Virus record (IMG/VR): IMGVR_UViG_2873258297_000006
Span: 14,029-78,028 of that record
DNA length: 64,000 bases
Strand: one strand, 5' to 3'
From: a virus
Lineage: Duplodnaviria; Caudoviricetes
The position numbers were made by a program, and so were the translations under genes. Below, in pieces: positions 57,616 to 59,508 of this stretch (position 1 is the first letter of the stretch; the number at the start of each line of letters is the position of its first letter). Under the pieces are notes generated by a model. The model saw only the letters and a program-made list of their open reading frames with translations, was not told where the DNA came from and ran no database searches.

Positions 57616-57686
57616 CCTCCCGGTGCGCAGGCCCGCGGCTACTTCTTTGGAAAAGTTCCGCCGCAGGTCGACTTGATCTCGGGAGG
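57616..57686 (+). ncRNA. Short Y-RNA-like ncRNA (71 nt)
   Basis: Terminal stem CCTCCCG/CGGGAGG; shares CCCGGTGCGCAGGC and TTGATCTCGGG with the adjacent RNA; upstream of the Ro60 gene. Confidence 0.7.
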
Positions 57687-57696
57687 CACAGCATCG

Positions 57697-57843
57697 GGGG
57701 TGCCCGGTGCGCAGGCAGCGGATACTTCTCCTGCTAAGAGAGAGACGCGGGTTCGAATCCCGTCCACCGGTCCAGGGGACCGGAGGTAGCTCAGCGGCCT
57801 AGAGCGCTTCGTCTCCGCAGCCGACCTTGATCTCGGGCACCCC
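57697..57843 (+). ncRNA. yrlA: YrlA-type tRNA-mimic Y RNA (147 nt)
   Basis: Terminal stem GGGGTGCCCG/CGGGCACCCC; T arm GCGGG-TTCGAAT-CCCGT, then capped acceptor-like hairpin, then TA-GCTC...GAGC D arm (permuted order); adjacent to rsr. Confidence 0.8.
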
Positions 57844-57855
57844 ACTGCTGGACCT

Positions 57856-57878
57856 CCCCTCCTATGCGAGGGGTTTTT
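57856..57878 (+). terminator. Terminator-like hairpin overlapping the rsr ribosome-binding site
   Basis: CCCCTC-CTATGC-GAGGGG-TTTTT immediately before ATG 57880. Confidence 0.55.
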
Positions 57879-57879
57879 C

Positions 57880-59508
57880 ATGGCCAGGTTCAACCAGCGC
57901 GGCACCCGTCCCGCCGTCCACTCGCCCGTGACCACAACCGGGGAGCGGACCGTCACCCACGAAGGCGCCACCGGGCACCTCCGCGATGCACGCTCCGAGC
58001 TCTTCCTGCTCGCCGTCTCCAACTTCGTTGGCCAGGACGTCTTCTACGAGAAGGGCGGCGACCGCGACGATCGATACACGCAGCTTGTTCGGCAGCTCGC
58101 CATCGAGGACCCCGAGTGGACGGCCGGCCTGCTCGGCTGGCTCCGCGGCGAAGGCAACATGCGGACCGCGGCACTCGTAGGCGCCGCCGAGTTCACCGCC
58201 GAACGGCTCCTCCACGAGGCACCCGGCTACTCCCGCCAGGTCATCGACTCTGTTCTCCAGCGCGCCGACGAGCCGGGGGAGATGCTCGGCTACTGGACAT
58301 CGAAGTACGGCCGCAAGCTGCCGAAGCCGGTGAAGCGCGGCATCGCCGACGCCGTACAGCGGCTCTACAACGAGCGGTCGCTCCTCAAGTACGACACCGA
58401 CTCCAAGGGCTACCGGTTCGGCGACGTCCTCAATCTCGTCCACGCGGCGCCCGACCCCGACAAGCCGTGGCAGGGAGACCTGTTCGCCTACTCGCTCGAC
58501 CGTCGGCACAAGCGCGGCACCGTCCCCGACCCCGACACACTGCCGACCCTCGCCCGGAACATGGCCTTCCCGGAGTTCGTTGACCACGCCCCGGCCATCC
58601 TCCTCGACGCCGACGAGGTGAAGCGCGCTGGCCTGACGTGGGAGATGGCGCTCTCGATGGCGGGCGGCAAGGTCGACAAGGCCAAGCTGTGGGAGGCGCT
58701 CATCCCGTCCATGGGAGTGATGGCGCTCGCCCGGAACCTACGGAACTTCGACGAGGCCGGGGTCTCCGACGAGGTCGCCGCGCGGATCTGCGCCCGGTTC
58801 GCTGACGCCGATCAGGTCGCCAAGTCACGCATGTTCCCCTTCCGCTGGTGGGCTGCCTACAAGCACGCTCCCTCCCTGCGGTGGGCCCACGCGCTCGAGC
58901 AGGCACTCGGCCACTCGCTCGCCAACGTGCCGCGCCTGAAGGGTCGGACGTTGATCCTGGTAGACCGGTCGCCGTCGATGTTCCCGGGCTACGGTTTCTC
59001 GACGCCGAACAGCTCCGACATCACGCTCGCCGAGCAGGCCGCTGCCTTCGGCTCCGCCCTCGCACTGCGGGCAGCTGACCCGACGCTCGTCGAGTTCGGA
59101 TGGACCAGCCAGAAGCTGGACGTCCCCAAGGGCGGCAGCGTCCTCAAGCTCATCGAACGCTTCGGGCAGATCGACGGCACCGACATCCCGTCCGCCGTCA
59201 AGCAGCACTACGACCTTCTCCGCCACAACCGGATCGTCATCGTCACCGACGAGCAGACCCGGCCCGGCTGGCTGCCCTCCAACGGCTGGCAGCGCGGAGG
59301 CATGCGCGAAACCCAGATCGACGACCTCATCCCCAAGACCGTGCCCGTCTACATGTGGAACATGGCGGGCTACAAGCCCGGCGCTATGCCGTCCGGAACC
59401 GCGGGCCGGCACACCTTTGGCGGGCTCACCGACCATGCCTTCCGGATGGTGCCGCTCCTCGAATCCGGCCGTGACGCCGACTGGCCGTGGGTCTCGAAGC
59501 AGGCCTGA
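57880..59508 (+). CDS. rsr: TROVE-domain Ro60 ortholog (Rsr) with C-terminal vWA domain
   Basis: ELFLLAVSNF..., RGEGNMRT, LLKY, MALARNLRN, FPFR..AY, MIDAS-like DRSPSM, TDI, IVTDEQ. Confidence 0.9.
   Translation: MARFNQRGTRPAVHSPVTTTGERTVTHEGATGHLRDARSELFLLAVSNFVGQDVFYEKGGDRDDRYTQLVRQLAIEDPEWTAGLLGWLRGEGNMRTAALVGAAEFTAERLLHEAPGYSRQVIDSVLQRADEPGEMLGYWTSKYGRKLPKPVKRGIADAVQRLYNERSLLKYDTDSKGYRFGDVLNLVHAAPDPDKPWQGDLFAYSLDRRHKRGTVPDPDTLPTLARNMAFPEFVDHAPAILLDADEVKRAGLTWEMALSMAGGKVDKAKLWEALIPSMGVMALARNLRNFDEAGVSDEVAARICARFADADQVAKSRMFPFRWWAAYKHAPSLRWAHALEQALGHSLANVPRLKGRTLILVDRSPSMFPGYGFSTPNSSDITLAEQAAAFGSALALRAADPTLVEFGWTSQKLDVPKGGSVLKLIERFGQIDGTDIPSAVKQHYDLLRHNRIVIVTDEQTRPGWLPSNGWQRGGMRETQIDDLIPKTVPVYMWNMAGYKPGAMPSGTAGRHTFGGLTDHAFRMVPLLESGRDADWPWVSKQA

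What the first reader, a model, noticed from the sequence alone, without database searches (positions are those of the whole stretch)
57718..57818. Permuted tRNA mimic that keeps a full anticodon arm (GCT, Ser-like)
Seen, in order: anticodon stem TTCTC/GAGAG with 7-nt loop CT-GCT-AA (57726-57742), 4-nt variable loop, T arm (57747-57763), acceptor-like stem closed by a loop (57764-57786), U8-A9 and D arm GCTC/GAGC (57787-57805). It is a circularly permuted tRNA opened between the D and anticodon arms, with no free CCA end. Known: YrlA RNAs mimic the D/T elbow. Inference: a canonical-looking anticodon loop makes it a possible decoy for anticodon nucleases or tRNA-modifying enzymes, and it cannot be aminoacylated.
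Basis: partly seen in the sequence, partly recalled or inferred. Interest (0 to 1): 0.75.

Follow-up and report, generated by a model that had tools for sequence, protein, structure and literature searches.

The report
Y RNA with a full anticodon arm
This is a prophage copy of a known bacterial Y RNA (YrlA type) that sits in front of its Ro60 partner gene. Its extra hairpin is a conserved copy of a tRNA anticodon arm whose shape is kept across Actinobacteria and their phages, while the "anticodon" triplet drifts freely.

Summary
The RNA (about 57697-57847, +) is a YrlA-family Y RNA. It lies 33 nt upstream of rsr (Ro60, 57880-59508) in the accessory end of a siphovirus-type prophage.

The hairpin is the stem-loop that Chen et al. 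2014 called "V" (variable arm). Comparison of 94 distinct actinobacterial copies and 40 full-length copies on viral contigs shows it is built like an anticodon arm.
- The loop is 7 nt in 92 of 94 copies: C32 97%, U33 99%, A38 98%.
- A 4-5 nt variable loop follows, ending in the Levitt partner of position 15.
- The top two stem pairs are most likely made with the two bases after the D arm (C57807-G57742, U57808-A57741). These pairs show many compensatory changes.
- The Ro60-binding helix therefore most likely branches from the side of the anticodon stem.

The triplet is not conserved. There are 24 different triplets, changing as fast as the least constrained loop, so "Ser-like" is not supported. 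The decoy idea is untested. "Cannot be aminoacylated" is unsafe, because M. smegmatis YrlA is cut by RNase P and receives CCA.

The scan noted a similar Streptomyces-phage cassette before. This is a known family with a refined architecture.

The parts
57697..57725 (+). 5' strand of helix H1, the presumed Rsr/Ro60-binding helix. It includes GGUGCGCAGG (57706-57715) and the invariant UAC (57723-57725).
   Evidence: Pairs with 57811-57847. 7 of 8 inner pairs show two-sided changes. The motif resembles the published GNCGAA box. Binding itself was not tested.
57726..57727 (+). Invariant UU. It is a junction linker in model B, or the outer two hairpin pairs in model A.
   Evidence: 0 changes in 94 sequences. 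It cannot pair with position 42 or 43 in 16 cells where 27-28 do pair.
57728..57740 (+). Lower anticodon stem (CUC/GAG, tRNA 29-31:39-41) and 7-nt loop CU-GCU-AA (57731-57737; triplet 57733-57735).
   Evidence: Compensatory changes at 30:40 and 31:39. Loop frame C32 97%, U33 99%, A38 98%.
57741..57742 (+). tRNA positions 42-43 (A, G), pairing with U57808 and C57807.
   Evidence: 42:28 = GC 66, AU 17, CG 4, UA 2. 43:27 = GC 80, CG 8, AU 2, UA 1. At least 17 and at least 10 pair-state changes on the tree.
57743..57746 (+). Variable loop AGAC (4 nt). C57746 is position 48.
   Evidence: Length is 5 nt in 74 and 4 nt in 19 of 94. Levitt pair 15:48 is G:C in 79 and A:U in 12 of 94.
57747..57763 (+). 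T arm.
   Evidence: Rfam YrlA local match. 99.6% of cells pair.
57764..57786 (+). Acceptor-like stem closed by a loop (10 pairs including one A.A; loop AGG).
   Evidence: 5 of the 7 acceptor pairs counted show two-sided changes.
57787..57805 (+). U8-A9 and the D arm.
57806..57810 (+). N26 (G57806), tRNA 27-28 (C57807, U57808) and linker UC.
57811..57847 (+). 3' strand of helix H1. It begins with the nearly invariant GU (about 88% of copies) that pairs with UAC.
57856..57878 (+). Terminator-like hairpin and U run, ending 1 nt before the rsr start codon.
57880..59508 (+). rsr (Ro60; TROVE domain), 542 aa.
   Evidence: Pfam TROVE 1e-15. PHROG 850 5e-46. 513 relatives found.
57616..57686 (+). Short companion Y RNA with the same Ro helix and UACUUC but no tRNA module.

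Best explanation
The region is the tRNA-like effector module of a prophage-borne YrlA-family Y RNA, whose partner Rsr (Ro60) is encoded immediately downstream.

In the actinobacterial subtype found here, the module copies a whole class I tRNA rather than only the D/T elbow. It has:
- a D arm and N26;
- a 5-bp anticodon stem, most likely made of 2 pairs between the bases after the D arm and the 3' end of the hairpin, stacked on 3 pairs within the hairpin;
- a 7-nt loop of the form C-U-NNN-R-A;
- a 4-5 nt variable loop, a T arm, and an acceptor stem closed by a loop.

The Ro60-binding helix leaves from the 5' strand of the anticodon stem as a side branch. Selection keeps the shape and frame of the anticodon loop (positions 32, 33, 37, 38) but not the triplet. 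The arm therefore serves recognition or folding as a generic tRNA shape, not mimicry of tRNA-Ser.

Shown: identity, architecture and conservation pattern. Inferred: Rsr binding, coaxial stacking of the two parts of the stem, and the role of the arm. The most likely role is to let tRNA-handling proteins treat the Rsr-bound RNA as a tRNA. [quoted passage not shown]
For: Identity:
- TROVE/Ro60 gene starts 33 nt downstream.
- Local Rfam YrlA match over the T arm, acceptor hairpin and D arm.
- The same RNA lies upstream of rsr in Streptomyces, Kitasatospora and many other actinobacterial loci.

Structure:
- A4, 94 distinct sequences: 96.4% of cells paired, covariation 0.502 against 0.148 in shuffles, 0 of 500 shuffles as high.

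Anticodon arm:
- 92 of 94 loops are 7 nt.
- Positions 32, 33 and 38 change 4, 2 and 3 times on the tree, against 25, 30 and 24 for positions 34-36.

Trans pairs 27:43 and 28:42:
- Nine canonical (fully pairing) combinations of these two pairs occur: CC/GG, CU/AG, GC/GC, CG/CG, CA/UG, UC/GA, AC/GU, GU/AC, UU/AA.
- The pairs hold in mycobacterial-type YrlAs that lack the UU.
- They hold in 30 of 32 viral-contig copies.
- The same pairs are part of the Rfam YrlA consensus stem, positions 24-26 with 82-84.

Frame:
- Levitt pair 15:48 covaries, so the 4-5 nt before the T stem are positions 44-48.

Origin:
- The model hits genuine tandem tRNA genes over positions 23-98, for example the host tRNA-Asn pair at 52.8 bits. 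This fits the dimeric-tRNA origin model quoted in 10.1101/312249.

Enzymes acting on YrlA: PMC4201824.
Against: - No expression, binding or probing data exist for this RNA.
- Rfam's YrlA model scores only 21.8 bits against a gathering score of 69.
- The nearest-neighbour model prefers the plain 5-bp hairpin (-70.3 kcal/mol) to the composite stem (-64.4 kcal/mol) in this sequence. In about 85-90% of sequences the invariant UU could also pair with positions 42-43, so the two forms may interconvert.
- A few homologues break a trans pair (L077, L168, L166, L051).
- The sequences are related, so cell counts overstate the number of independent events.
- C occurs at position 37 in 12% of the 92 loops of the 94-sequence set, which real tRNAs avoid.
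- The published authors model the hairpin as a variable arm. I could not see their figures.
Confidence: 0.75

Rival explanations
1. The arm is a specific decoy: it presents a tRNA-Ser(GCU)-like anticodon loop to soak up an anticodon nuclease or a tRNA-modifying enzyme during phage-host conflict.
For: - The loop frame is conserved in prophage, phage and chromosomal copies.
- Loops follow a tRNA-like 36-37 rule: 14 of 15 G36 loops have G37, and most U36 loops have A37.
- From my own knowledge, G36-G37 is the TrmD determinant and U36-A37 the t6A determinant.
- Phage Kela has an RNA ligase gene beside its Ro gene.
- Salmonella rsr-yrlA lies in an operon induced by damaged tRNAs (PMC7790460 abstract).
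Against: - The triplet is not conserved even among the closest relatives, which share the CUC/GAG stem and AGAC variable loop: GCU, GCC, UCC, GUC, CUU.
- Its rate equals that of the least constrained loop.
- There is no long variable arm, and the stem is unlike the host tRNA-Ser genes.
- No nuclease gene was identified nearby.
- Being a substrate is not the same as being a decoy.
Confidence: 0.1
2. The published drawing is right. Helix H1 is the anticodon-stem equivalent, as in Salmonella YrlA, and the hairpin projects as a class II-type variable arm.
For: - Chen et al. 2014 label the stem-loop upstream of T as V.
- In the Salmonella crystal structure the anticodon stem continues into the Ro module.
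- The conserved UA of YUAY lies at the top of H1 here too.
Against: - The hairpin lies 5' of two covarying pairs (27:43, 28:42) that abut N26 and the D stem, so it is inside the anticodon stem, not between positions 43 and 49.
- 4-5 nt ending in the Levitt partner separate it from the T stem.
- A 7-nt CU...AA loop is typical of anticodon loops. Class II variable arms have 3-5 nt loops (my own knowledge).
- There is zero linker between positions 41 and 42, which favours stacking of the hairpin on the 2-bp helix (three-way-junction rule of Lescoute and Westhof 2006, from memory).
Confidence: 0.1
3. The arm is an evolutionary leftover of the first tRNA of a tandem tRNA ancestor. It is kept only as a stable hairpin with no partner of its own.
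For: - The model matches tandem tRNA genes.
- The dimeric-tRNA origin model exists in the literature.
- The triplet is free to vary.
Against: - Four of the seven loop positions, the loop length and the stem length are held across families, across phages with 37-67% GC, and across two subtypes. A mere stabilising hairpin would not need this.
- The classical type-2 Y RNAs in the same loci do without the hairpin.
Confidence: 0.08
4. It is a genuine tRNA-Ser(GCU) gene, as ARAGORN calls it (57704-57774).
For: - ARAGORN call.
- Rfam tRNA local score of 19.9 bits.
Against: - The score is below the Rfam threshold of 29.
- There is no D arm in the called span.
- The called acceptor stem borrows the Ro-helix strand CCGGUG, a pairing absent in the close relatives L031 and L103.
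- tRNA-Ser needs a long variable arm.
- The host has two normal tRNA-Ser(GCU) genes.
Confidence: 0.01

Closest known systems
YrlA of Mycobacterium smegmatis and mycobacteriophages (Chen et al. 2014, PMC4201824)
   Same: - Encoded just upstream of rsr.
- Same element order: Ro-helix 5' strand, hairpin, T arm, closed acceptor stem, D arm, Ro-helix 3' strand.
- The published 5' probe reads as UUAC-CCA-CUUCUAA-UGG, the same kind of 7-nt loop.
- Relatives of that type obey the same trans pairs.
   Different: - The hairpin was published as a less-conserved "V" (variable) arm.
- The mycobacterial type lacks the UU linker and has the GNCGAA box; here the box reads GUGCGCAGG.
- The window's acceptor helix has 10 pairs rather than 7, so RNase P processing is uncertain.
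YrlA of Salmonella Typhimurium (Rfam RF02553; structure 6CU1, bioRxiv 10.1101/312249)
   Same: T arm, closed acceptor stem, D arm, tertiary-contact nucleotides, Levitt pair, and the top pairs of the anticodon stem.
   Different: - In Salmonella the anticodon stem runs straight into the Ro module and "lacks the anticodon loop".
- Here a 3-bp stem with a 7-nt loop continues the stem and the Ro helix branches off.
- The classical layout also exists in Streptomyces as the second, rsr-proximal Y RNA (type 2).
Tandem (dimeric) tRNA genes
   Same: The run from anticodon arm, variable loop, T arm and acceptor 3' strand, through a spacer, to the acceptor 5' strand and D arm is collinear with two adjacent tRNAs. 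The model hits such pairs.
   Different: - The outer parts are replaced by the Ro-binding helix.
- The spacer is reduced to a hairpin loop.
- The element is linked to rsr.
Deinococcus radiodurans Yrn1
   Same: It is described as having a potential anticodon arm with a 5-bp stem.
   Different: It has the opposite orientation of the T and D elements, a 6-nt loop and an incomplete D arm.
TYMV tRNA-like structure and tmRNA
   Same: L-shaped tRNA mimics. The TYMV structure has an anticodon-domain mimic.
   Different: Both have a free CCA end and are aminoacylated. Neither has a Ro60 partner.

Membership tests
YrlA-family Y RNA | Encoded within 4 kb of an rsr/Ro60 gene | tested here: met
   The RNA ends at about 57847 and rsr starts at 57880.
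YrlA-family Y RNA | Nearly invariant T and D stem-loops separated by a closed acceptor-like stem-loop, with T before D | tested here: met
   Rfam YrlA local alignment 57744-57805. Covariation.
YrlA-family Y RNA | tRNA tertiary-contact nucleotides, including a covarying Levitt pair 15:48 | tested here: met
   G:C 79, A:U 12 of 94. U8 in 94 of 94, A14 in 92 of 94, T loop UUCGANU.
YrlA-family Y RNA | 5' motif GNCGAA(N)G in a helix formed by the two ends (Ro60 site) | tested here: inconclusive
   The window has GGUGCGCAGG and chromosomal copies have GGUGCGAAGG. This is close to the published box but not identical. The helix covaries. Binding was not tested.
YrlA-family Y RNA | Reaches the Rfam RF02553 gathering score | tested here: not met
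   21.8 bits against 69. The mycobacterial-type L333 also fails at 43.3 bits. The model is built on the classical layout.
YrlA-family Y RNA | Bound by Rsr in vivo | not testable with these tools
   Needs immunoprecipitation.
Genuine tRNA (tRNA-Ser GCU) | Cloverleaf with an open acceptor end, a D arm 5' of the anticodon arm, a long variable arm, and a score above threshold | tested here: not met
   Rfam tRNA 19.9 bits against 29. No D arm in the called span. Variable loop of 4 nt.
tRNA anticodon arm (as a structural mimic) | 5-bp stem, 7-nt loop, U33, purine 37, then a 4-5 nt variable loop | tested here: met
   92 of 94 loops are 7 nt. U33 99%, R37 87%, A38 98%. Variable loop is 4-5 nt in 93 of 94. 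On viral contigs U33 is 32 of 32 and R37 is 32 of 32.
Class II tRNA variable arm (published label V) | Stem-loop located between position 43 and the T stem | tested here: not met
   The hairpin lies 5' of the covarying pairs 42:28 and 43:27.

The most novel reading that the evidence does not exclude
Actinobacterial and actinophage type-1 Y RNAs are whole-tRNA mimics that enter tRNA pathways while tethered to Ro60.
- Their anticodon loop would be modified by the position-37 enzymes (t6A or TrmD class).
- Some would be cut by RNase P and CCA-tailed into two-piece, possibly chargeable tRNA-like molecules.
- Alternatively, their freely changing triplet would track the specificity of host anticodon nucleases, so that the phage copy acts as a decoy or sensor.
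Probability: 0.1. Interest if true: 0.85.

Novelty: new variant of a known kind. Interest (0 to 1): 0.5.

Why it matters
The effector that reads the tRNA-like domain of bacterial Y RNAs is still unknown, and published work stresses the D/T elbow. This analysis gives three leads.
- In Actinobacteria and their phages the module keeps a full anticodon arm with a conserved loop frame, and the Ro60 helix is most likely only a side branch. The partner may therefore read the whole tRNA shape, including the anticodon loop. That narrows the candidates and gives clear mutants to test (U33 and A38 against the triplet).
- It supports the idea that these RNAs arose from tandem tRNA genes.
- It explains a practical artefact: tRNA finders and deposited phage annotations call these RNAs tRNA genes.

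Tried and rejected
- Rfam at gathering thresholds found nothing.
- Single-sequence folding gave no significant z-scores.
- The ARAGORN tRNA-Ser call was rejected as a hybrid of Ro-helix strand, hairpin, T arm and acceptor strand.
- Specific mimicry of host tRNA-Ser(GCU) was rejected.
- An exact search for the published M. smegmatis probe sequence found nothing in genome contigs. A degenerate pattern then recovered relatives, but mostly noise.
- The two Wolin-lab reviews (PMC6047535, PMC10870794) are not held, and the supplements and figures of Chen 2014 are not held. I therefore could not see how the V arm was drawn.
- A third trans pair, 29:41 (U.G), was considered and dropped, because 7 of 39 sequences have A there.
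- The alternative pairing CCGGUG/CACCGG between the Ro strand and the acceptor strand is not conserved in close relatives.

Full report
**What is there**

The full map is given under Parts of this report. Briefly, it runs from the stem-loop at 57726-57742, through the 4-nt AGAC, the T arm, the loop-closed acceptor-like helix, and U8-A9, to the D arm ending at 57805. The elements are embedded in a long helix formed by 57697-57725 and 57811-57847. A terminator-like hairpin with a U run follows (57856-57878).

The next gene, 57880-59508, encodes a 542-aa TROVE-domain protein, that is Rsr/Ro60 (Pfam 1e-15; PHROG 850). Upstream lie terminase, portal, tape measure, minor tail, endolysin and an HNH nuclease. 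The cassette therefore sits in the accessory end of a prophage in an 8.7-Mb Streptomyces-like genome. A second, chromosomal rsr locus with two tRNA-like Y RNAs lies at G000:C1:6707733-6708101.

**Family**

- Rfam's YrlA model matches locally over the T arm, acceptor hairpin and D arm. The score is 21.8 bits against a gathering score of 69, and nothing passes gathering thresholds.
- ARAGORN calls a 71-nt tRNA-Ser(gct) at 57704-57774. This is a hybrid of the Ro-helix strand, the hairpin, the T arm and the acceptor 3' strand. It has no D arm and scores 19.9 bits against 29 on the Rfam tRNA model. Its acceptor pairing is not conserved in close relatives.
- The host already has two ordinary tRNA-Ser(GCU) genes with unrelated anticodon stems and long variable arms.

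**Literature**

- Chen et al. 2014 (PMC4201824) defined YrlA RNAs. [quoted passage not shown]
- Their M. smegmatis 5' probe shows that this RNA carries the same kind of element, with a CUUCUAA loop.
- M. smegmatis YrlA has a 7-bp acceptor stem, is cut by RNase P and receives CCA in vivo.
- The Salmonella structure (bioRxiv 10.1101/312249) has the anticodon stem running into the Ro module and "lacks the anticodon loop". The same paper quotes a dimeric-tRNA origin model.
- None of the papers I could search describes the hairpin as an anticodon arm. The two reviews and the figures were not available.

**Comparative data**

I collected rsr loci and Y RNAs from four sources:
- 40 relatives;
- 80 Streptomycetaceae loci;
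- pattern scans of genomes and viral contigs;
- a class-wide search with a covariance model, R1, built so as not to favour either pairing of the outer hairpin bases.

Two layouts coexist.
- Type 2 is usually the rsr-proximal copy at chromosomal loci. It is the classical YrlA, with a 5-bp anticodon stem made in trans and showing clear compensatory changes such as UCUGA/UCAGA and CCAGG/UCUGG.
- Type 1 is the window's layout. The invariant UAC-UU is followed by a short hairpin.

**The hairpin in type 1**

These figures come from 94 distinct type-1 sequences (alignment A4).
- The loop is 7 nt in 92 of 94.
- C32 is 97%, U33 99%, A37 79% (purine 87%) and A38 98%.
- The two loop-proximal pairs show full compensatory changes.
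- The segment between hairpin and T stem is 5 nt in 74 and 4 nt in 19. Its last base covaries with D-loop position 15 (G:C 79, A:U 12). It is therefore the true variable loop, positions 44-48.
- Positions 34-36 carry 24 different triplets.
- On a tree built without those columns, positions 34-36 change 25, 30 and 24 times. This is as often as the closing loop of the acceptor hairpin (21-34 times). Positions 32, 33 and 38 change 4, 2 and 3 times.

Among 40 distinct full-length copies on viral contigs (GC 37-67%), 32 have the 3-bp stem with a 7-nt loop. In those 32, U33 is present in all, purine 37 in all and A38 in 31, with 16 different triplets.

**Where the molecule is "opened"**

The outer pairs of a plain hairpin therefore show no two-sided change, and 16 cells cannot pair.

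The two bases after D stem + N26 behave differently. They are complementary to the last two bases of the hairpin in almost every sequence.
- They occur in nine canonical (fully pairing) combinations.
- 42:28 is GC 66, AU 17, CG 4, UA 2. 43:27 is GC 80, CG 8, AU 2, UA 1.
- The pair states change at least 17 and at least 10 times on the tree.
- The rule holds in the mycobacterial-type YrlAs, which have no UU at all.
- It holds in 30 of 32 viral copies.
- These pairs correspond to positions 24-26 with 82-84 of the Rfam YrlA consensus, the top of the classical anticodon stem.

The best model is therefore a 5-bp anticodon stem. Two pairs form in trans (C57807-G57742, U57808-A57741). Three pairs form in cis (57728-57730 with 57738-57740). 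No nucleotide separates the two parts on the 3' strand. The Ro helix leaves between tRNA positions 28 and 29.

Stacking of the two parts is inferred from junction rules recalled from memory, not shown. For this particular sequence the nearest-neighbour model prefers the plain hairpin by 5.9 kcal/mol. Both forms remain possible, and either gives an anticodon-like arm.

**Origin and meaning**

The model also hits genuine tandem tRNA genes over the span from the anticodon arm of the first tRNA to the D arm of the second. One example is the host tRNA-Asn pair at 52.8 bits. This fits the dimeric-tRNA origin model.

The loops fall into two flavours, NNU-A-A and NNG-G-A. 14 of 15 G36 loops have G37. 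This mirrors real tRNAs and, from my own knowledge, the determinants of the t6A37 and TrmD enzymes. It is suggestive only, because the sequences are related and 12% of the loops in the 94-sequence actinobacterial set have C37.

Function is inferred. [quoted passage not shown] A complete arm would make the module a whole-tRNA mimic for such proteins or for the unknown effector. A nuclease decoy role remains possible but has no direct support.

**Verdict**

This is a real, conserved RNA of a known family. The anticodon-arm reading of the published V stem-loop appears to be new relative to the papers I could read.

Earlier notes of this scan describe a similar Streptomyces-phage cassette (e1-3456877). 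They also describe Ro-binding arms grafted on complete tRNA shapes in other lineages (e1-733404, e1-1940638). These are leads, not evidence.

Noticed in passing
window 57616-57686: A short Y RNA directly upstream has the same Ro helix and UACUUC motif but only a small AU-rich hairpin instead of the tRNA module. It resembles YrlB.
   Followed up: partly
L114:1204-1338 (Gordonia phage VanLee), L113:1269-1409 (Streptomyces phage GiJojo): Features deposited as tRNA-Arg(tct) and tRNA-Arg(cct) just upstream of the Ro gene overlap covariance-model hits for the Y RNA (107 and 35.6 bits). They look like the 5' two-thirds of Y RNAs miscalled as tRNAs, as ARAGORN does in this window.
   Followed up: partly
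G000:C1:6707733-6708101 (L027/L239): The same genome has a second, chromosomal rsr locus. It has a type-1 Y RNA (loop CUGAUAA) and a classical type-2 Y RNA, so the prophage adds a second Ro/Y RNA system.
   Followed up: partly
L096:1015-1145 and other type-2 copies; G000:C1:4499214-4499287: The trans anticodon stem and variable loop of type-2 Y RNAs (UCUGA/UCAGA, AGGUU) are identical to those of the host tRNA-Arg(ACG). Mycobacterial-type loops CUACGGA and CUUCUAA equal tRNA-Arg loops.
   Followed up: no
L111:729-1481 (Streptomyces phage Kela): An annotated RNA ligase gene sits immediately upstream of the phage Ro gene. In several other actinophages the Ro gene lies inside the tRNA array.
   Followed up: no
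window 57856-57882: The terminator-like hairpin ends one base before the rsr ATG. Its 3' arm GAGGGG could double as the ribosome-binding site, so Y RNA termination and rsr translation may be coupled.
   Followed up: no
alignments A4 and A5, loop positions 36-37: Loops are either NNU-AA or NNG-GA. G37 is almost confined to G36 loops: 14 of 15 G36 loops have G37, and only 2 of 109 other loops do.
   Followed up: partly
L403:6882-7013 (IMGVR_UViG_2660238121_000003): A viral contig carries a near-twin of the window's RNA, with the same CUC/GAG stem, CUGCUAA loop and AGAC variable loop. Several further Y RNA hits lie in the same 600 bases.
   Followed up: no
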